Source: a virus (taxonomy: Duplodnaviria; Caudoviricetes). From it: 54,260 bases of DNA. The stretch spans positions 1 to 54,260 of IMG/VR virus record IMGVR_UViG_3300047300_001096. One strand, written 5' to 3'. The translations under genes were made by a program, and so were the position numbers. The stretch's first letter is position 1. Each line of letters opens with the position of its first letter. The notes below the pieces were generated by a model, which was not told the DNA's origin, did no database searches, and saw nothing but the letters and a program-made list of their open reading frames with translations. Shown here piece after piece: positions 11,393 to 34,909 of this stretch.

Positions 11393-11468
<76 letters not shown>

Positions 11469-11478
11469 GACTCGTGAG

Positions 11479-11552
11479 TGGAGCGGGATATCAGGCTCGA
11501 ACTGATCTCTCTAGTTTGGAAGACTAGGGCACAACCCCTATACCAATCCCGC
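11479..11552 (-). tRNA. tRNA-Gly(TCC)
   Basis: GCGGGAT acceptor, CTAGT-CTTCCAA-ACTAG, TCCA end. Confidence 0.92.
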
Positions 11553-11643
11553 TTAAATTTCTATATCTACTAAACTTACTTTGACAAAACCATGTTCGTC
11601 AAAACTCCAGATTAGAACTTGCAGCATATTGCCGCTTTTATAA

Positions 11644-11904
11644 TCAAAAAGGGACATCTTCATCTTTCCAGGGAGCTATCTCATTTTGATAATATTCTTC
11701 AGCTTCTTTAAACCCTGCTCTTGCAAGTAAATCAGTCATAACAGGTGTTGTAAAATTTACAAATCCTTGTTTATTTAACCATATAAGGTATTCAAAATCA
11801 TCTGCAATAATGTCGCATATACGACAGCCAGCAAACTTACCAATAGTAAGTTTATCTAACATATCTAATTTTTGAGATTTTAAACTACCAAATGATTTAG
11901 CCAT
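11644..11904 (-). CDS. Exonuclease X C-terminal-like small domain protein
   Basis: LTIGKFAG..I.DI...D..YL.WL motif. Confidence 0.6.
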   Translation of the reverse strand: MAKSFGSLKSQKLDMLDKLTIGKFAGCRICDIIADDFEYLIWLNKQGFVNFTTPVMTDLLARAGFKEAEEYYQNEIAPWKDEDVPF

Positions 11905-12481
11905 TTTGTTTTTCCGACTCAAGTTCTTGCATTGCAGCCGCTTTAGCAAGTACTAAATCAATACGTGCAAGTACTTGTTGGCTAGTCATCCAAATGTCTT
12001 TGTTATCTAACATGGACTTGATTTCTTCAGGTGTTAAAAAATTGTGGTATACTTCATGCAAGAAGTTTTCTGACCAAGCACGTTCAAACTGAAGTTGGTC
12101 AAACATTTCACCGCCTTTGCCAAATACGCCTGCACTATAGTTGTGGAACATAAACAAGCTATGTGGTGTTACTTCAAACTCATCTCCGTGTAGGAATATC
12201 ATTGTTGCAGCACTCATACAAGCACCCTCTACACTAGTAATTACATGGGCATCTGTTTCTGATAGCACGCGCAAAAACTGCAAAGCCGTATATAAATCGC
12301 CTCCGCAACTATTAATGTAAATTTTAATTGTGTCTGTACTACGAGCATTACGAATGGTGTCAAACCATTCTGTATATTCACTAGCTTCTTCTATTTCGCC
12401 TGACAGATAAAATTCGTGTACGCTTCCCGTATTCTTTGTAAAATACGTTTTACTCAATGTAATTTCTGTTTTGTCTGTCAT
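11897..12481 (-). CDS. ClpP-like protease (S14)
   Basis: YINSCGG, GACMSAATMI (Ser), FMFHN (His), DIWMT. Confidence 0.9.
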   Translation of the reverse strand: MTDKTEITLSKTYFTKNTGSVHEFYLSGEIEEASEYTEWFDTIRNARSTDTIKIYINSCGGDLYTALQFLRVLSETDAHVITSVEGACMSAATMIFLHGDEFEVTPHSLFMFHNYSAGVFGKGGEMFDQLQFERAWSENFLHEVYHNFLTPEEIKSMLDNKDIWMTSQQVLARIDLVLAKAAAMQELESEKQNG

Positions 12482-12491
12482 GTGTGTTCTT

Positions 12492-12632
12492 TTATTTAAG
12501 TTGTTGTAAATGTTGTCGACAAGCGTTTACCCAAGCAACAACAGTCATGTTGTCTGTAACATGACTGTAATTTTGGATAACCCACTCACAAATATCGCGG
12601 CTTTTGGCATGATAGCCAGGTATTACGTCCAT
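12492..12632 (-). CDS. Hypothetical small protein
   Basis: ATG 12632 with an AAGGA RBS just after tRNA-Cys. Confidence 0.55.
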   Translation of the reverse strand: MDVIPGYHAKSRDICEWVIQNYSHVTDNMTVVAWVNACRQHLQQLK

Positions 12633-12642
12633 ATAATTCCTT

Positions 12643-12720
12643 TGGAAGTGTGGGTGAGATTTGAACTCACGATTTTCAGGATTTGCAATCCCGTGCATTG
12701 GACCGCTCTGCCACCACACC
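12643..12720 (-). tRNA. tRNA-Cys(GCA)
   Basis: GGGA-TTGCAAA-TCCT anticodon arm, T-arm, TCCA end. Confidence 0.88.
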
Positions 12721-12825
12721 ATATTTTAGCACACTAGCATATGAGTTTGCAACCTCATACTAACCCGCGGAAGGTGTACGCGATTACTCCGCATATATGT
12801 ATTAAGTGGCAGTGTACTAAAATAT
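12721..12825 (-). ncRNA. Candidate stable RNA 1 (stem-closed inter-tRNA spacer)
   Basis: 15-bp terminal inverted repeat with a G-U pair only on the minus strand; two internal hairpins. Confidence 0.55.
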
Positions 12826-12899
12826 GGCGGTCTTATGGGGTAACGATCCCCATCTACAGCAGTGACAGTGCTGTGTGCGTCCATGAACACTTTAAGACC
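12825..12899 (-). tRNA. tRNA-Asp(GTC)
   Basis: CAGCA-CTGTCAC-TGCTG anticodon arm, GCCA end; atypical T-loop ATCGTTA. Confidence 0.85.
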
Positions 12900-12997
12900 A
12901 TTTTTAGTAGCGCCTGGTCGCCATATCCAGGTAGCTTCAGTGTCAGGGAGGAGAATAACACTTACACGCTATAGCCAATGAATTCGCTACTAAAAAT
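12900..12997 (-). ncRNA. Candidate stable RNA 2 (stem-closed inter-tRNA spacer)
   Basis: Perfect 13-bp terminal inverted repeat ATTTTTAGTAGCG/CGCTACTAAAAAT; two internal hairpins. Confidence 0.55.
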
Positions 12998-13072
12998 GGC
13001 ATCCCGTACCAGATTCGAACTGGTGTAGTCACCGTGAAAGGGTGGTGTCCTAGGCCTCTAGACGAACGGGAT
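12997..13072 (-). tRNA. tRNA-Glu(TTC)
   Basis: Cloverleaf, CT-TTC-AC loop, GTTCGAATC, GCCA end. Confidence 0.92.
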
Positions 13073-13079
13073 ATTGTTT

Positions 13080-13163
13080 TGGTACGAGTAATCGGAGTCG
13101 AACCGATACGCATTTCGCGGGAGATTTTAAGTCTCCTGGGTCTACCAATTCCCCCATACTCGC
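13080..13163 (-). tRNA. tRNA-Leu(TAA)
   Basis: GGAGA-CTTAAAA-TCTCC, long variable arm, ACCA end. Confidence 0.92.
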
Positions 13164-27746: not shown

Positions 27747-28033
27747 CACACATTTACAAAAAAGCTTGACAAAAGATTACAAAAATTCTCTCCGACCCTA
27801 AACTGCAGCAATCCCACAATTCCCATAACCAAAGCATTGCAAACTACAAAGCAAAATTAATCTTCATCAAAGCATCCAGCAACGCTTTCAACAAACTTGC
27901 CAATTCAAGCACCAAGTGTTATAATATTATTATAGTTTTTAGAACAAATGCTCAACACACCTCCACACTAAAAAATACACTTGTTATTATGCTATCAAGT
28001 GTGCTATAATTTAGTATAACTTAAAGAGTTAAA

Positions 28034-28157
28034 GACTAGGTTGATTTAGAGAATTGATCTAAACTATCGAAACCTCTTGATGACGAGCCCTGCCGAGGTA
28101 AAGCTAGAGTGGTTTGGTACAGTTTAGGGTCAATTCAAATAAATCGCGAACCTAGTC
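28034..28157 (+). ncRNA. Long rod-like hairpin in the leader of the 28206 gene
   Basis: Nested pairings GACTAGGTT/AACCTAGTC, GATTTA/TAAATC and GAATTGA..TAAACT/AGTTTA..TCAATTC, downstream of a promoter. Confidence 0.55.
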
Positions 28158-28205
28158 CTGCTTATCGACTACAATTGTGTTTGAACTAAAACTACTATAT
28201 TTAAA

Positions 28206-29000
28206 ATGCTATTTAAAAAACAAGAAATACACTCAATTGATTTTACTGGAACTGAACACTTAAATCTCGAAGGCTGGGAAAGTTGGTGTGAATCGGTAAG
28301 TCTGTCCCACCTTTACACCTGGTTGCTGCCTCAATTAGTAGCTTGGTATGGAACCTGGACTCTAGTAAAAGATGGTGATCGAATTGATGCTTTAGCCACA
28401 GTTAAACACAACTGCCCTGACCCTAAGTCTAGGGCATTTTATATGTTGTCAAGGGTTAAACGAAGTTTATTATTAGCAACACAAACGAAAGCTCCAGAAT
28501 ATGCTACACTAACCCCACTGATCTTAATGGGACAAAAGCGAATGGCTGGAGTTGACTACGAGTCTTGGAGAACAGCCACAAATTTGCAGTGGATTTTAGA
28601 ACCCCGACTCCTAGAAGCAATATTATTAGATGGTAAAGATTTGTCGATGATTGACAGTTTAGGGTCAGAAAGACTCTTAGCTATACAAACACAAGGATTA
28701 ACTACTAAGTCAGGTAAAACAGCAGGCTCAAAGAAGCCTGCAAAGTCTACTTGGAGTTTAACAGGAATTCAGGACACAGAGATTGGGCACTTGCCTAAAT
28801 TAACTCAAACAATCTTAACACAATGCTGGCTAGCACATCCTGAATTACGAACACCTTATATGATCTTAGACTTACAAAACTGGGATAATATGCCCAAACC
28901 TCTAGTATCTAATGATATTTTTAAAGTGGAACAACCACTTCAACCAACCCCGAAACAGAATTTGAAAGAGCTGGCAGATGTAATGCCCTGGGACCTATGA
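28206..29000 (+). CDS. Hypothetical protein (264 aa)
   Basis: Long ORF coupled to the A2-like gene; no motif recognised. Confidence 0.8.
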   Translation: MLFKKQEIHSIDFTGTEHLNLEGWESWCESVSLSHLYTWLLPQLVAWYGTWTLVKDGDRIDALATVKHNCPDPKSRAFYMLSRVKRSLLLATQTKAPEYATLTPLILMGQKRMAGVDYESWRTATNLQWILEPRLLEAILLDGKDLSMIDSLGSERLLAIQTQGLTTKSGKTAGSKKPAKSTWSLTGIQDTEIGHLPKLTQTILTQCWLAHPELRTPYMILDLQNWDNMPKPLVSNDIFKVEQPLQPTPKQNLKELADVMPWDL

Positions 29001-29350
29001 AATACACTAAAGAAATCACAGACAAATTGATACAAGACTACAAGGCTCAAATACCTGTAGCACAAATTGCACAAGAGTTAGACGTACCAGAACGTAGTGT
29101 GATCGCAAAACTCAGCTCTCTGGGCGTCTACCAGAAAAAATCATATGTCAACAAGCGTGGTGAGATTCCAGTTAAAAAATCGGAGCACATCGAACGCATT
29201 GCTGAGCTTCTGGACGTGGATGAAGAATTGTTGGAATCGCTGGAGAAGGTCAACAAAACGGTTCTCAAGCTAATTGAAGCTAAACTTGCCCAATCTGACC
29301 CTAAACTGCCACAATTAGGCACAAAAAATCAGTTATTTGAAGTTGTTTGA
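28997..29350 (+). CDS. T5 A2-like DNA-binding protein (paralog 1)
   Basis: YT.E....Y....IA..L....RSVIAKLS..GVY.KK...KK....IA....ESLEK.NK..L. Confidence 0.75.
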   Translation: MKYTKEITDKLIQDYKAQIPVAQIAQELDVPERSVIAKLSSLGVYQKKSYVNKRGEIPVKKSEHIERIAELLDVDEELLESLEKVNKTVLKLIEAKLAQSDPKLPQLGTKNQLFEVV

Positions 29351-29362
29351 ACTTAAACAAAC

Positions 29363-29398
29363 AAAAGCCCACTTATTTGAGTATAAGTGGGCTTTTTT
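29363..29398. terminator. Bidirectional intrinsic terminator
   Basis: AAAAGCCCACTTAT/ATAAGTGGGCTTTTTT. Confidence 0.85.
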
Positions 29399-29530
29399 GC
29401 GTGGGTATCGGTGACCGTGTAAATTGTGTACGATTGCTCTGGTTTAGGGTCAATTAAAGAAAACTTTAATATGGGCTGGGTCATATTAAAGCGTTTTTAA
29501 CAGTTTAGGGTCAGAGTGTAGAATATCCAC

Positions 29531-29560
29531 TTGACAAGATTTGCCACTCGGTGGTATAAT
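29531..29560 (+). promoter_or_regulatory. Consensus promoter with no downstream ORF
   Basis: TTGACA-18-TATAAT followed by GGCGC. Confidence 0.65.
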
Positions 29561-29575
29561 GGCGCAGAAATGACC

Positions 29576-29613
29576 AAAACAAAAGCCCCTGCACACGAAT
29601 GTGAGGGGCTTTT
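29576..29613. terminator. Bidirectional terminator ending the ncRNA candidate
   Basis: AAAAGCCCCT/AGGGGCTTTT stem with T-runs on both strands. Confidence 0.85.
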
Positions 29614-30157
29614 GAAAGCATTTGCAAGTGCACTTGCGTTGTCTTTTTTGTTGCATCAAGGTGTGTTTACGGATAATCAATCCAACCTTGACCCTAAACT
29701 GCCGCGTTAGCTGCCTACTCTGTTAGTCAGTGGTGATGAAGTCACTGTGAGCGTTTAGGTTGCGGGGTTTGCACGTTTCGGTCTTAACTGGGAACTCCCT
29801 ATCAAGATATCCGTGACTAACACATAGATTAACGCATTTGCTAGCGACTGAGCTTTTAGACCTTCGACAGTTTAGGGTCAGATTCGCACCATTATTTAAG
29901 CACCCGTTGCTAGGTCTTGTGCGCCTTTACAGAATGGTTTGCGCAACGCCATTCAATCGCTAGTAAGATTCCATACTTACATTACAGAACTAGGTTCTGG
30001 TCTTGGTTAGAAGATAGCTGTATTTGTTAAGCCAGTTCTTTCTGCTTTATTAGACATTTTTACGAGTGTACTAGATGGCTCGGCATGGGATATAGGGTCG
30101 GCTCCCTAGAACTACTCATTACCTAACACCAACAAGTGGTACACGCTAGGGGTTTCG

Positions 30158-30260
30158 TCCTGACCCTAAACTGCTGCAGGTTATGAGTATTGAAGTCTCA
30201 CGGACCGTGCTGCTGAGGTAGAGGGTTTCGCTGAACTTACATCAGCTCATCAGAGGGTTA
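30158..30260 (-). ncRNA. Hammerhead ribozyme-like core
   Basis: CUGAUGA-GCUGA(UGUAAGU)UCAGC-GAAA at 30253-30226; candidate AGGG-UC-AGG substrate at 30167-30159. Confidence 0.55.
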
Positions 30261-30441
30261 AGTTGGCAGCCGCTAGAGCGTTCCTCGGCTATTAAGTTGC
30301 TATCCCGCAATCAAGTGGCAGGCCTCATAACACCATGTTTGTGCTCCACGCTTGTGCGGTTGAAGCTAAGGGCTGTGGCTCAGAATTCCCCACAATTAAG
30401 ACTTATTTGACACTGATGTCACCCTATCAATTTATATAATA

Positions 30442-30470
30442 ATTATACAGTATTTAGCATACTATATCAA
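30442..30470 (-). promoter_or_regulatory. Promoter of the ncRNA candidate
   Basis: TTGATA-17-TATAAT with an A/T-rich upstream element. Confidence 0.8.
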
Positions 30471-30671
30471 GTAAAAAATTAGACACTCGCTGCAATCAGA
30501 CTACTCACAAAACAGACTAATAAATAATTTGGAGGTTGAGGTGAGATTCATTTGCAAACGGACACCAATTGCTTGGTATTCATTAAGCCCTTCTCGACTG
30601 TCTAAGATATTATTATACAGAATTTAAGGAAGAGGATCAAGTATAAATTTTTTGACCCTCAACCACAGCAA

Positions 30672-30980
30672 TCAACGCAAGTTTTGGAGAATTGCTTCCA
30701 ACACTTCGTGATTGGCTTTTTCGAGGCTATCAAATGCCTCTGGGCTAGCATTGCACAAGTTAGCAATGCGATCAACCAATTCTGCTTTCTTTACACGGGC
30801 TGTGCCCACAGTTTTAGATTTAGCAGTGTAAACACCTTCACGTGAGAGTTTTGCTACCACGCTTCGAGTGGTTTTGCCAAACATTGTTGCCAATGATTCG
30901 ACAGTTGCGCCAGCTTTGTAGTTGGCAACCAACTGAGCTGTTTGCTCAGCTGTGTAATTTACGGTTTTGTCAGTCATCAT
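30672..30980 (-). CDS. T5 A2-like protein (paralog 2)
   Basis: TVNYTAEQT...RSVVAKLSREGVY...SLEKAN. Confidence 0.8.
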   Translation of the reverse strand: MMTDKTVNYTAEQTAQLVANYKAGATVESLATMFGKTTRSVVAKLSREGVYTAKSKTVGTARVKKAELVDRIANLCNASPEAFDSLEKANHEVLEAILQNLR

Positions 30981-31037
30981 ATGTCCTTTCAAATGGTTTC
31001 TGCGCTGTTAAAGATATAATTATACAGTGTTTGAGTA

Positions 31038-31160
31038 TCAGGCACAAGTGAGAATTTCTTCGGGTATGTGCATATCTTCCAAAATTTGCGATACTTCTTG
31101 GTCAACAAAATCCTCAAACCACTGTTGTTGAGTTAACTGGAAAAATTCTTGATCTGTCAT
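31038..31160 (-). CDS. Small acidic protein (40 aa)
   Basis: Hand-translated MTDQEFFQLTQQQWFEDFVDQEVSQILEDMHIPEEILTCA; upstream promoter and RBS. Confidence 0.55.
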   Translation of the reverse strand: MTDQEFFQLTQQQWFEDFVDQEVSQILEDMHIPEEILTCA

Positions 31161-31506
31161 CTTAGAGCCTTTCTCGATTTCAATAAGAAATTATAAAATT
31201 TTTTGAAATTTTGGCCAAGACTAAGTTTTTGCACTTGAACGGGCCGCCGCTGAAAATACACTTGACAAGATAAGGTTTTCCACTGTATAATGGGCGCTGC
31301 GGCACAATCAAATTTTTGCACTTGCCAAGGTTTTGCACTGGCGCAGCAAAATACCACCAAATTTTATGGGTAAAAAATTACCCAAAACCGAAAAAAACTA
31401 GTACAAAAGTATTACTCGCGTAGAACTCCGCGGGGCTCGAAAAAATGCCCGCGGAGAATCAGTTCCGCGGGCTTTGGCGCCTGAAGTAAGCGCTTACTTC
31501 GCTTTA

Positions 31507-31755
31507 TTATCTTTTTGAAGTCAATTTATAATAAATAATAATCGACAAAAAGATTATATTTGCAGTGTAATTAAATAATAATGGCAAATCCATTTTAGGC
31601 AAAATATAAATAAAAGTTAATATTTCGCCTAAAAACCACATAGAAATAAATCCCCAAGTTAATCCCTCAGAGGATTTTGTTCTAATAGATTCAATAGCTT
31701 GTGGCAAACCACAAAATGCCATTAAAATACTGCCTAACCAACCTAAACTTTCCAT
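31507..31755 (-). CDS. PQ-loop/SemiSWEET-like membrane protein, copy 1
   Basis: LGWLGS...LPQ...TKS.EGL; three TM helices. Confidence 0.8.
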   Translation of the reverse strand: MESLGWLGSILMAFCGLPQAIESIRTKSSEGLTWGFISMWFLGEILTFIYILPKMDLPLLFNYTANIIFLSIIIYYKLTSKR

Positions 31756-31916
31756 AATGTTCCCATTATATAGAACCTCCTAAAAATTGTCAAGTTTTTA
31801 TTGAAAACAAAAGTACGCATTAGCAAAAATACAACATAGGTGTTTTCCCCTATTGACATTTTTCGGGCCGCGGAGTATTTGGCGCCGAAGTGAGCGCTCA
31901 CTTCGCTGGTGGATAA

Positions 31917-31952
31917 TAAAAAGCGATTATCTGAGATAATCAGATAATCGCT
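31917..31952 (-). terminator. Intrinsic terminator
   Basis: 13-bp stem AGCGATTATCTGA/TCAGATAATCGCT plus T-run. Confidence 0.75.
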
Positions 31953-31958
31953 AGTTAA

Positions 31959-32285
31959 TCAAATAGGCTTGCTATTTGCTAATGCGTTAAAAATCGCTTT
32001 TAATGCGTTTTTATTAGCCTTAGTTAATGATTCAATATCATTTTCGGGTAATCGCAAAATCGCACCGATTGCATCGGCATGAGTATCTTTTTTAACAACT
32101 GATTCACCAGTTTTAGTTTTATATTCTTTTTTAATATAAACTTTTTCTCGTGAAAGTTTTGCGACAATACTCCGAACAGTTTTACCAAGATTATCTGCAA
32201 TAGTTTCAACAGAAACTCCTGCTTGATAATCGTTAATCATTTTCTGAGTTTGCTCAGGGGTGTAATTTACAGTTTTTGCATTCAT
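31959..32285 (-). CDS. T5 A2-like protein (paralog 3)
   Basis: TVNYTPEQT...RSIVAKLSREKVY...ESLTKANK. Confidence 0.8.
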   Translation of the reverse strand: MNAKTVNYTPEQTQKMINDYQAGVSVETIADNLGKTVRSIVAKLSREKVYIKKEYKTKTGESVVKKDTHADAIGAILRLPENDIESLTKANKNALKAIFNALANSKPI

Positions 32286-34432: not shown

Positions 34433-34909
34433 TTAGTGACCTTGTTTAGAGGGTACATAAACACCTCGAATATTGAAACGATCACAAACTGCTTTTAAAT
34501 AAGTTGCATTATCCTCATAAAATGTAAATTCTGCATCTTTGAATGTAATCAGATTAAAAAACTTTGCTAAACCATTTATTTTTAATGTAGAGCCAGAGAT
34601 ATTAGAATTCTCAGGTCTTGATATAATGTAATCAGGGTTTCCCAATACCTTGTCAATAAATGTATAATCGGGGGTATTGAGAACACGGGCAGTAGCAATA
34701 ATGACATAACAGTTTTCATCTTTTAAATCCCGTTTATATTGTTCGGCTAATGGCAAGAGAGAATCATTCAAAGCCAAATCTTGATTTTCTCTCCAATACT
34801 CTAAATCAATTCTTTCGCCTTTATCGTCAACGATTGTACGATAACGATGCAAACTGCAAACAATAGTTCCATCCATATCGTAAATTGAAACCCGATTAAT
34901 TTTAGCCAT
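34433..34909 (-). CDS. dmp: HAD deoxynucleoside-5'-monophosphatase (T5 Dmp-like)
   Basis: RVSIYDMDGTIVCSLHR...DSLLPL...IIATAR...FTFYED, similar to T5 Dmp. Confidence 0.78.
   Translation of the reverse strand: MAKINRVSIYDMDGTIVCSLHRYRTIVDDKGERIDLEYWRENQDLALNDSLLPLAEQYKRDLKDENCYVIIATARVLNTPDYTFIDKVLGNPDYIISRPENSNISGSTLKINGLAKFFNLITFKDAEFTFYEDNATYLKAVCDRFNIRGVYVPSKQGH

What the first reader, a model, noticed from the sequence alone, without database searches (positions are those of the whole stretch)
30158..30260. Hammerhead ribozyme core inside the large RNA, with the repeated 13-mer as a possible substrate
Seen (minus): UUAACCCU-CUGAUGA-GCUGA UGUAAGU UCAGC-GAAA-CCCUCU, the canonical catalytic core with a 5-bp stem II. 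Stem III can close on AGGG-UC in the repeat copy at 30161, putting cleavage between 30162 and 30161, but stem I is then only 3 bp (AGG/CCU). The copy at 29689 (AGGGUC-AAGGUUGG) offers an alternative long-range substrate with 7 of 8 stem I pairs including wobbles. Alternatively, helix GUUAUGAG/CUCAUAAC leaves both arms free, as in a trans-acting ribozyme with a target like GAGGG-UH-AGGGUUAAG. Function is inference.
Basis: partly seen in the sequence, partly recalled or inferred. Interest (0 to 1): 0.8.

Follow-up and report, generated by a model that had tools for sequence, protein, structure and literature searches.

The report
Self-cleaving hammerhead in phage RNA
A genuine hammerhead ribozyme sits in a non-coding transcript of a freshwater phage, where it most likely cuts itself off to create the front end of a conserved, structured RNA of unknown function.

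Summary
On the minus strand, CUGAUGA (30253-30247), a 5-bp stem II, GAAA (30229-30226) and a GUC site (30164-30162) form a complete type I hammerhead. The window is a roughly half-complete phage contig. The same element lies at the same place in 33 of 36 related viral loci, and upstream of a conserved downstream motif in 26 of 36 metagenome loci. In 48 distinct copies, 14 of 18 pairs show compensatory changes (0 of 500 shuffles reach this). In 33 copies all core bases are invariant except N7, and H17 is C or A. Rfam does not call it: 15.7 bits against a threshold of 48.5. It also misses compact phage hammerheads of the same topology.

The site co-varies with its own arms, while the 13-mer is an invariant motif on both strands.

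The 3' product (30161 to about 29572) is a conserved, covarying, non-coding RNA absent from Rfam. Contigs from four metatranscriptome runs cover it far more deeply than the ribozyme-bearing leader.

Verdict: a new member of a known ribozyme class. The RNA it releases is the more novel part.

The parts
30612..30640 (-). Upstream promoter-like site P1 (TTGATC-17-TATAAT). The expected start is near 30605.
   Evidence: 10 of 12 matches. It belongs to a repeated promoter family with 30439-30455 and 31016-31032 (family D5).
30442..30470 (-). Proximal promoter-like site P2 (TTGATA-17-TATAAT). The expected start is near 30435.
   Evidence: 11 of 12 matches.
30258..30435 (-). 5' leader. It holds a conserved hairpin (about 30400-30365) and a stretch of roughly 100 nt that the main-clade relatives lack.
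   Evidence: Query positions 35-79 and 180 onward find relatives. Positions 76-134 find none. Positions 135-216 match only L024 and L025.
30158..30257 (-). Type I hammerhead ribozyme. Stem I is 30256-30254 with 30161-30159. The core is CUGAUGA at 30253-30247. Stem II is 30246-30242 with 30234-30230. GAAA is at 30229-30226. Stem III is 30226-30222 with 30167-30163, extended by an irregular hairpin at 30221-30168.
30161..30162 (-). Predicted scissile bond, after C17 (30162) and before A1.1 (30161).
   Evidence: This is the position of the unpaired H17 between stems III and I. At this position C occurs in 29 and A in 4 of 33 copies, never G. Cleavage itself is inferred, not shown.
29572..30161 (-). 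3' cleavage product: a conserved, structured non-coding RNA of about 590 nt to the terminator. The conserved core is 30161-29690.
   Evidence: 68 predicted pairs, 16 with compensatory changes. No minus-strand ORF of 30 aa or more lies between 29681 and 30658. There is no Rfam family and no tRNA or tmRNA. Metatranscriptome contigs cover it deeply.
29771..29818 (-). Highly conserved 3'-domain element: AGUCACGGAUA, a variable hairpin, then YGAAACGUGC.
   Evidence: The hairpin stem covaries (columns 522-524 with 571-573). In viral contigs the element is found with a hammerhead upstream in 13 of 14 loci.
29868..29880 (-). Copy of the 13-mer in the opposite sense; the RNA reads UGACCCUAAACUG. It can pair with either sense copy.
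   Evidence: pairs I1, I7. predicts pairing with 29690-29699, but these pairs show only one-sided wobble changes and no compensatory change.
29689..29701 (-). Second sense copy of the 13-mer (CAGUUUAGGGUCA) at the 3' edge of the conserved RNA.
   Evidence: It is syntenic in relatives but does not covary with the ribozyme arms.
29572..29614 (-). Terminator-like hairpin (CAAAAGCCCCU / AGGGGCUUUUG) followed by a U-run.
   Evidence: (pair I19).

Best explanation
This is a cis-acting type I hammerhead ribozyme, with the parts in the order CUGAUGA, then GAAA, then cleavage site, and stem I open.

Proposed mechanism: a non-coding phage transcript starts near 30435, or near 30605 from the upstream promoter. 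The ribozyme folds as soon as it is transcribed. Stem II and the long stem III hairpin are local, and stem I is only 3 bp here (3-6 bp in relatives). The RNA then cleaves after C30162. The leader of about 274 nt keeps the whole catalytic core and ends in a 2',3'-cyclic phosphate. The short stem I lets the downstream RNA fall away at once, with a 5'-hydroxyl on A30161. That released RNA is a conserved, structured non-coding RNA that runs to the terminator near 29572, and it is the product that accumulates. The ribozyme's job is therefore to give it a defined 5' end free of the leader.

Shown here: the sequence, the three helices, covariation, linkage to the downstream RNA, and RNA-library coverage. 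Inferred: cleavage itself, the chemistry of the ends, and that processing is what makes the RNA stable.
For: Sequence: a canonical core and a GUC site.

Structure: RNAalifold on 25 MAFFT-aligned sequences returns exactly stems I, II and III with C17 unpaired.

Pair counts:
- 25 sequences: 87.1% of cells paired against 76.8% shuffled; 10 of 18 pairs with double changes; 0 of 500 shuffles reach this; slid controls 27-46%.
- 33 sequences: 90.5% against 76.2%; 13 of 18 pairs.
- 48 distinct sequences: 90.0% against 76.5%; 14 of 18 pairs; covariation score 0.380 against 0.144; 0 of 500.

Core conservation: C3, U4, G5, A6, G8, A9, G12, A13, A14, A15.1 and U16.1 are invariant in 33 of 33. Only N7 varies (U in 31, C in 2). 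H17 is C in 29 and A in 4.

The site evolves as an RNA helix. Examples are CUCACAGU/ACUGUGGG in L049, ACUUCCAGG/CCUGGAGGU in L024, and a 6-bp stem I AACCUU/AAGGUU in L095. The 1.1-2.1 pair switches from A-U to U-A in L024, L027 and L028.

Presence: the model finds the element in the window and in 33 of 36 loci fetched through the neighbouring gene.

Linkage to the downstream RNA: among loci found only by the 3'-domain motif, a hammerhead lies about 360-830 nt upstream on the same strand in 13 of 14 viral loci and 26 of 36 metagenome loci. It lies in 0 of 6 bacterial chance hits.

Downstream RNA: it is conserved. It has 68 predicted pairs, 16 of them compensatory, with 98.7% of cells paired against 93.4% shuffled (0 of 500). 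It holds many G-U pairs that would be A-C mismatches on the other strand.

Expression (four metatranscriptome runs from three studies, held as contigs). Summed word depth in the bins 30104-30147 / 30148-30191 / 30192-30235:
- X21: 12591 / 760 / 93
- X20: 3551 / 208 / 24
- X19: 218 / 77 / 5
The peak at 29884-29927 is 132047 (X21), 64640 (X20), 3255 (X19) and 865 (X22). Depth is 0 in all four runs over 29400-29575.

Precedent: the 5' end of a major halovirus HF2 transcript maps within 3 nt of a hammerhead site (Perreault 2011, PMC3088659; passages read).
Against: - No cleavage was observed. Everything rests on comparative sequence analysis.
- Stem I in the window is only 3 bp, with C-A at the fourth position. 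That fourth pair is unpaired in 21 of 48 copies.
- Minimum-free-energy folding does not form stem I for the window or for L012. The window's fold is no better than shuffles (z = -0.79).
- Rfam gives only a truncated Hammerhead_3 match of 15.7 bits against a threshold of 48.5, and nothing in the wider scans.
- The stem I to stem II tertiary contact that fast natural hammerheads need could not be identified.
- The RNA evidence is weak in kind. These are contigs, not reads, so strand, ends and levels are not shown. Depths sum over all relatives at 85% likeness or more, so conserved stretches collect more. One contig (X21 record 17, depth 32) bridges the site, and the X19 contig that stops nearby ends at 30164, not 30161.
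- A 22-nt stretch with 86% complementarity, between the site strand (30160-30181) and 29860-29881 (pair I1), could compete with stem III.
Confidence: 0.8

Rival explanations
1. Trans-acting ribozyme. The core, with free arms or after cutting itself, cleaves other phage or host RNAs that carry the repeated 13-mer or a GAGGG-UH-AGGGUUAAG-like target.
For: The motif core TGACCCTAAAC occurs 18 times in the window at up to 1 mismatch, against 0.63 expected (0 of 100 shuffles). It contains GGGUC-A. Most family members (those reading UUAGGGUCA/UUAGGGUAA) have a cleavage site that resembles the motif.
Against: - In type I topology the 3' strand of stem III is held in cis by a hairpin and stays on the enzyme fragment after cleavage. 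The stem III arm is therefore never free.
- Motif copies lie on both strands with no relation to the direction of transcription, inside ORFs and in promoter spacers. They are near-invariant across relatives.
- The ribozyme's own site drifts with compensating changes and is unrelated to the motif in L049, L122, L024, L095 and L205.
- No GAGGGUHAGGGUUAAG-like target is found in the window at up to 3 mismatches (0 found, 0.5 expected).
- The GUUAUGAG half of the arm-freeing helix lies in a stretch with no counterpart in any related locus.
Confidence: 0.04
2. Two-site processing. The same core also cleaves after GUC of the distal sense copy (29690|29689), excising a 472-nt RNA with 5'-OH and cyclic-phosphate ends that could be circularised.
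For: - A sense copy sits at a syntenic place at the 3' edge of the conserved RNA in nearly all relatives.
- Contig depth falls between the bins 29708-29751 and 29664-29707.
- The phage encodes a polynucleotide kinase-like protein (34433-34909).
Against: - There is no covariation. In L024, L027 and L028 base 2.1 is A and the local site has U at 1.1, yet the distal copy keeps A after GUC. In L095 the arms do not fit the distal copy.
- It would require displacing a local stem III of 9 bp or more.
- None of the 4 joints listed in the RNA contigs goes back on itself. Contigs can miss rare forms.
- The depth decline there is gradual.
Confidence: 0.07
3. An inactive relic or a chance look-alike with no catalytic role.
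For: Stem I is very short, there is no Rfam call, and the window's fold energy is not significant.
Against: All catalytic bases are invariant across 33 copies, while the helices change with compensation in up to 48 copies. The full pattern is expected 0.005 times per window by chance.
Confidence: 0.03

Closest known systems
Type I hammerhead ribozymes (order CUGAUGA - GAAA - site; Rfam RF00163, clan CL00010)
   Same: The 11 fixed core bases, the three helices, the GUC site, and stem I as the open helix. The part order is as defined in PMC10085705 (passages read).
   Different: Stem III carries an irregular extension, so that about 63 nt separate GAAA from the GUC. Stem I is only 3-6 bp. Rfam models do not reach threshold.
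Phage and prophage hammerheads of Perreault et al. 2011 (PMC3088659), including HHphage of haloviruses HF1/HF2
   Same: Hammerheads in intergenic regions of tailed-phage genomes, proposed to process long transcripts. For HHphage, a mapped transcript 5' end lies within 3 nt of the site (passages read).
   Different: Those flank protein-coding genes. This one is fixed at the 5' end of a large non-coding RNA. HHphage has an altered core, whereas this core is canonical.
Compact type I hammerheads in other IMG/VR phage contigs, found here with model R1
   Same: Same topology. Three of the six shown (L067, L098, L090) share the UGAAA-type loop II, the 5' UAA and the 3' GAAAACC flanks around a 4-bp stem I. 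Rfam's thresholds also miss them.
   Different: They are 69-80 nt long with a short stem III. They often occur several to a contig, for example seven matches in L056. They are not linked to the downstream RNA described here.
Large structured phage-associated non-coding RNAs (GOLLD, ROOL)
   Same: They are hundreds of nucleotides long, many-helix, phage-borne and non-coding. The comparison rests on the abstract of PMC12286853 in a search listing and on recall.
   Different: No sequence or structure match to any Rfam family. No ribozyme-made 5' end is known to me for GOLLD or ROOL; that point is recalled, not searched.

Membership tests
Hammerhead ribozyme | Core strand C3-U4-G5-A6-N7-G8-A9 | tested here: met
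   CUGAUGA at 30253-30247. All positions are invariant in 33 of 33 copies except N7 (U in 31, C in 2), which is the one position the consensus leaves free.
Hammerhead ribozyme | G12-A13-A14 followed by the A15.1-U16.1 pair | tested here: met
   GAAA at 30229-30226. The A-U pair is present in 48 of 48 copies and G12-A14 in 33 of 33.
Hammerhead ribozyme | Three helices (I, II, III) radiating from the core, kept by compensatory change | tested here: met
   RNAalifold recovers all three. Of 18 pairs, 14 show double changes in 48 sequences. Cells paired: stem I 89.1%, stem II 97.9%, stem III 85.9%.
Hammerhead ribozyme | Cleavage triplet N-U-H with H17 unpaired and not G | tested here: met
   GUC at 30164-30162. 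H17 is C in 29 and A in 4 of 33 copies, never G.
Hammerhead ribozyme | G10.1-C11.1 pair closing stem II | tested here: met
   G-C in 47 of 48 copies. The exception is L039.
Hammerhead ribozyme | Tertiary contact between stems I and II (loop-loop, loop-bulge or pseudoknot) | tested here: inconclusive
   Loop II keeps U-G-N-A-A, and the flanks keep 5' (U)AA and 3' GAAA(A/C)CC. No covarying partner could be assigned.
Hammerhead ribozyme | Mg2+-dependent self-cleavage giving 2',3'-cyclic phosphate and 5'-OH ends | not testable with these tools
   There is only indirect RNA-contig coverage.
Type I (open stem I) permutation | Order 5' stem I strand - CUGAUGA - stem II hairpin - GAAA - stem III hairpin - UH - stem I strand 3' | tested here: met
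Rfam hammerhead models (RF00008, RF00163 and their clan) | Score at or above the curated gathering threshold. This is a property of the models, not of the ribozyme class. | tested here: not met
   The best match is a truncated Hammerhead_3 hit of 15.7 bits against 48.5. Four compact phage type I hammerheads also fail.
Known large non-coding RNA families (GOLLD, ROOL, OLE, HEARO, IMES and others in Rfam 15) | Match of the downstream RNA to a family model | tested here: not met
   No match at gathering score. At E up to 10 there are only scattered sub-threshold hits, including a HEARO hit of 13.1 bits on the opposite strand at the terminator and a DUF805b hit of 20.5 bits against 35.6 that is not conserved in relatives.

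The most novel reading that the evidence does not exclude
The hammerhead may be the maturation device of a previously undescribed class of large, structured phage non-coding RNA (about 470-590 nt) that is very abundant in freshwater metatranscriptomes. This RNA carries one antisense and one sense copy of the phage's genome-wide 14-nt motif (YRGTTTAGGGTCAR), which can pair with each other. It could act as a decoy or regulator for whatever factor reads that motif on DNA or RNA, for example the three paralogous HTH proteins encoded beside it. In this reading, self-cleavage and the short stem I exist to free the RNA in a stable form that starts with a 5'-OH.
Probability: 0.15. Interest if true: 0.8.

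Novelty: new member of a known kind. Interest (0 to 1): 0.55.

Why it matters
This is a clean, comparatively proven hammerhead that the standard library does not call. So are four compact phage hammerheads of the same topology tested here, out of the many that model R1 finds. This marks a blind spot in routine annotation of phage genomes.

Few bacterial or phage hammerheads have a known purpose. This one has a fixed partner: it always sits just upstream of the same conserved, structured non-coding RNA in a widespread lineage of freshwater, estuarine and wastewater phages. That gives a testable role, namely making the 5' end of a stable RNA.

The RNA it releases is in no family library. It shows covariation and appears to be heavily represented in RNA libraries. 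That makes it a candidate new large phage RNA for structural and functional study.

Tried and rejected
- Rfam at gathering score on the whole window, and at E up to 10 on 1.5 kb: no hammerhead.
- blastn of the region against 50,697 deposited phage genomes: no match.
- The exact 29-mer of the core in IMG/VR: no match.
- Host or prophage search through the 264-aa neighbouring protein in 185,579 species genomes: none found.
- The 3'-domain pattern in the same genomes: 6 scattered hits without a hammerhead, judged to be chance.
- Function of the 264-aa ORF that carries two motif copies. At least 400 relatives are all unnamed, with no Pfam or PHROG family. The AlphaFold2 model has a mean pLDDT of 43.6, too poor to search with. 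The idea that the motif cluster is an origin with iterons inside an initiator gene therefore stays untested.
- GC skew follows gene direction and shows no origin-like switch.
- ARAGORN: no tRNA or tmRNA in 28000-32000.
- A pseudoknot between loop II and the 5' flank: the pairing registers differed between sequences on inspection, so the idea was dropped.
- A weak DUF805b-like Rfam hit at 29712-29748 (E 0.007, below threshold): not conserved in relatives, so dropped.
- RNA contigs: no back-join, and no clean shared stop at 30161. No conclusion about circles or exact ends can be drawn from them.
- One literature query failed on syntax and was not repeated.
- Paper supplements were not opened. 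The hammerhead alignments in the supplements of PMC3088659 might already contain members of this family.

Full report
WHAT IS THERE. The window is a 54,260-bp IMG/VR virus record, estimated to be about half complete. It is a tailed phage with terminase, portal, a capsid-protease fusion, major tail protein, DnaB-like helicase, ligase and thymidylate synthase. Its portal is at most 41% identical to those of Vibrio siphophages. Near-identical or related DNA turns up in freshwater, estuary, wastewater and aquatic metagenomes.

Genes on the plus strand end at 29350, and genes on the minus strand end at 30672. Between these ends lies about 1.3 kb with no minus-strand ORF of 30 aa or more from 29681 to 30658. 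On the minus strand this stretch holds two promoter-like sites (30640-30612 and 30470-30442) and a terminator-like hairpin with a U-run (29614-29572). That predicts a non-coding transcript of about 864 nt from about 30435.

THE OBSERVATION. CUGAUGA is at 30253-30247. Stem II is 30246-30242 with 30234-30230. GAAA is at 30229-30226. The partner AGGGU is at 30167-30163, followed by C30162 and AGG at 30161-30159. A core-only pattern is expected 0.065 times per shuffled window, and the full three-helix pattern 0.005 times (1 of 200 shuffles).

IS IT A HAMMERHEAD? Rfam says nothing at its thresholds. On the 141-nt stretch alone it gives only a truncated Hammerhead_3 match of 15.7 bits against a threshold of 48.5. 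The comparative evidence is nevertheless strong.

Relatives of the two flanking genes brought in 43 viral loci. The non-coding region is 70-80% identical in many of them, and the homology typically begins exactly at the ribozyme. A simple pattern found the core in 28 of the 36 loci fetched through the 106-aa gene. Stem II varies as GCUGA/UCAGC, GCACA/UGUGC, GCCGA/UCGGC, GCCUA/UAGGC, GCCCA/UGGGC, GUCUA/UAGAC and GCUGG/CCAGC.

RNAalifold on a plain MAFFT alignment of 25 distinct copies predicts exactly stem I, stem II and stem III, with the C after GU unpaired. For an 18-pair structure:
- 25 sequences: 87.1% of cells pair against 76.8% in shuffles and 27-46% when partners are slid; 10 pairs show double changes.
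- A covariance model built from this alignment (R1) finds the element in the window and in 33 of 36 loci. Two of those matches are cut by a contig end and one is a weak partial match. L018, L026 and L044 have none.
- 33 sequences: 90.5% paired, 13 of 18 pairs with double changes.
- 48 distinct sequences, including metagenome copies: 90.0% against 76.5%, 14 of 18 pairs, covariation score 0.380 against 0.144, and 0 of 500 shuffles reach this.
The last two alignments were fitted to the model, which favours it. The first was not.

Every catalytic base is invariant in 33 of 33 copies. The one variable core position is N7. H17 is C in 29 and A in 4, never G. Single-sequence folding forms stem II and the long stem III in all six sequences tried. 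It forms stem I only in L024, L033 and L041, not in the window. This fits a stem I of just 3 bp with a C-A at the fourth position, which is the weakest part of the model.

The topology is type I: CUGAUGA, then GAAA, then the site, with stem I open.

WHICH SUBSTRATE? The local site co-evolves with the ribozyme arms. Stem III reads CUCACAGU/ACUGUGGG in L049, CUCCCAG/CUGGGGG in L122 and ACUUCCAGG/CCUGGAGGU in L024. In L095 the site is GAGUC|AAGGUU with a 6-bp stem I, AACCUU/AAGGUU. In L024, L027 and L028 the 2.1-1.1 pair is A-U instead of U-A.

The distal sense copy of the 13-mer does not follow these changes. In the three lineages where 2.1 is A, it still has A after GUC. After cleavage, the 3' strand of stem III stays hairpin-linked to the enzyme, so the arm is not free for trans targets. 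The helix GUUAUGAG/CUCAUAAC that would free both arms has its 5' half in a stretch with no counterpart in any related locus. No target of the proposed form exists in the window.

THE 13-MER. It is real and strongly over-represented: 18 matches to the 11-mer core at up to 1 mismatch, against 0.63 expected. It lies on both strands, inside ORFs, between genes and inside a promoter spacer (29497-29524). Ten copies are packed into 27793-30663.

It is conserved at syntenic places and in fixed orientations in the relatives. Its information content spans about 14 positions, C-R-G-Y-TTAGGGTCA-R (126 distinct instances, many of them homologous). That pattern points to a motif read in its own right. The most likely reader is a DNA-binding protein, and three paralogous small HTH proteins are encoded right there. 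I could not test this.

Most family members have a cleavage site that resembles the motif (UUAGGGUCA), which is more than chance. But the resemblance is lost in several lineages that keep the motif elsewhere. This remains unexplained.

THE RNA THAT IS RELEASED. Downstream of the site the sequence stays conserved for 300-450 nt or more. An alignment of 14 main-clade copies gives 68 consensus pairs in 14 helices. Sixteen pairs have compensatory changes, and 98.7% of cells pair against 93.4% in shuffles (0 of 500). The structure was derived from the same alignment and the sequences are related, so this is supportive rather than conclusive. Numerous G-U pairs fit only the minus strand.

The most conserved piece is AGUCACGGAUA, a hairpin, then YGAAACGUGC (29818-29771). 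Searching for that piece alone recovered 14 viral loci, 13 of them with a hammerhead upstream on the same strand; the fourteenth lacks the upstream sequence. It also recovered 36 metagenome loci, 26 with a hammerhead; several of the other 10 are cut short, and some are probably chance matches. No Rfam family, tRNA or tmRNA matches, and no deposited phage genome holds the region.

EXPRESSION. Four metatranscriptome runs from three studies, available only as contigs, were laid on 29400-30700 at 85% likeness.
- Depth is 0 in all four runs over 29400-29575.
- It is very high over about 29750-30147, peaking at 132,047 in X21 and 64,640 in X20.
- It falls across the cleavage site. In X21 the bins read 12,591, then 760, then 93. 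In X20 they read 3,551, then 208, then 24. In X19 they read 218, then 77, then 5.
- It stays low over the ribozyme and leader.

Caveats apply. Contigs show neither strand nor ends. Depths sum over all relatives, so conserved stretches collect more. One low-depth contig bridges the site. The nearest contig end is at 30164. I treat this as a hint that the 3' product far outlasts the leader, and no more than that.

HOW IT MOST LIKELY WORKS. The ribozyme folds during transcription and cleaves in cis after C30162. The short stem I releases the downstream RNA, which then starts with a 5'-hydroxyl A and accumulates. The leader carrying the ribozyme does not accumulate. That 5'-OH ends and loss of the leader increase stability is general knowledge about bacterial RNA decay, not something shown here.

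The closest precedent I read is HHphage of haloviruses HF1/HF2, where a mapped transcript 5' end lies within 3 nt of the site (PMC3088659; passages). The same paper establishes that hammerheads are common in phages and prophages.

COMPARISON AND NOVELTY. The element meets every sequence and structure criterion of the hammerhead class that can be tested in silico. The tertiary contact and the catalysis itself remain untested. It is a new member of a known kind.

Model R1 also finds 102 matches in 80 other phage loci that were fetched by a generic core pattern. Three of the six shown share the same loop II and flank signature, and Rfam misses the four tested. The lack of an Rfam call therefore reflects the library, not novelty of the fold.

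What is new is the fixed association with a large, conserved, structured and apparently abundant non-coding RNA of an uncultured but widespread phage lineage. I found no description of this RNA or of the association in two full-text searches. Neither search targeted this RNA specifically. Supplements were not available, and the supplementary hammerhead alignments of PMC3088659 might already include relatives.

Noticed in passing
window 27793-30663, plus scattered copies at 2780, 6281, 8711, 15208, 17509, 23820, 25723, 38756 and 53861: An asymmetric motif of about 14 nt, YRGTTTAGGGTCAR, occurs 18 times against 0.63 expected. It lies on both strands, with ten copies in 2.9 kb around the non-coding RNA. 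It is conserved at syntenic sites in all relatives. It looks like a protein-binding site (operator, iteron or similar), but no reader has been identified.
   Followed up: partly
window 28997-29350 (+), 30672-30992 (-), 31959-32285 (-): Three paralogous small HTH proteins (phrog_323 'D5-like transcriptional regulator', phrog_1725 'DNA binding protein') flank the non-coding region. They are candidate readers of the motif.
   Followed up: no
window 29531-29560 (+), 29580-29614, 29623-29638 (+): A perfect-consensus promoter (TTGACA-18-TATAAT with TG) points into the 3' end of the non-coding RNA and is followed by two terminator-like hairpins. This would give a short RNA antisense to the tail of the large RNA. 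The promoter box recurs at 31252-31291 and is kept in L024.
   Followed up: no
window 29771-29818 (-): AGUCACGGAUA, a variable covarying hairpin, then YGAAACGUGC is the most conserved element of the released RNA. It resembles no ribozyme or motif I could name.
   Followed up: partly
L027 6101-6199; also L033, L035 and L036 downstream of their hammerheads: In some relatives the antisense motif copy sits in a 44-nt unit repeated in tandem (2.2 copies in L027, 98% matches). The released RNA there carries two to four such units.
   Followed up: partly
L045-L124 (for example L056, L045, L119, L064, L091): Many other IMG/VR phage contigs carry compact type I hammerheads (69-80 nt), often three to seven per contig. 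The four tested (L067, L098, L090, L048) are not called by Rfam at gathering score.
   Followed up: partly
L095 5046-5175: In a low-GC subfamily the promoter of the hammerhead-RNA unit directly follows a tRNA gene, and the leader before the ribozyme is only about 20-30 nt.
   Followed up: no
window 34433-34909 (-): A polynucleotide kinase-like gene (phrog_415). Such an enzyme could act on the 5'-OH and cyclic-phosphate ends that a hammerhead leaves.
   Followed up: no
window 11396-13163 (-): A cluster of five tRNA genes.
   Followed up: no
window 30262-30365 (-): About 100 nt of leader between the conserved 5' hairpin and the ribozyme are absent from the main-clade relatives. The 3' part of this stretch resembles the leader of L024 and L025.
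   Followed up: partly
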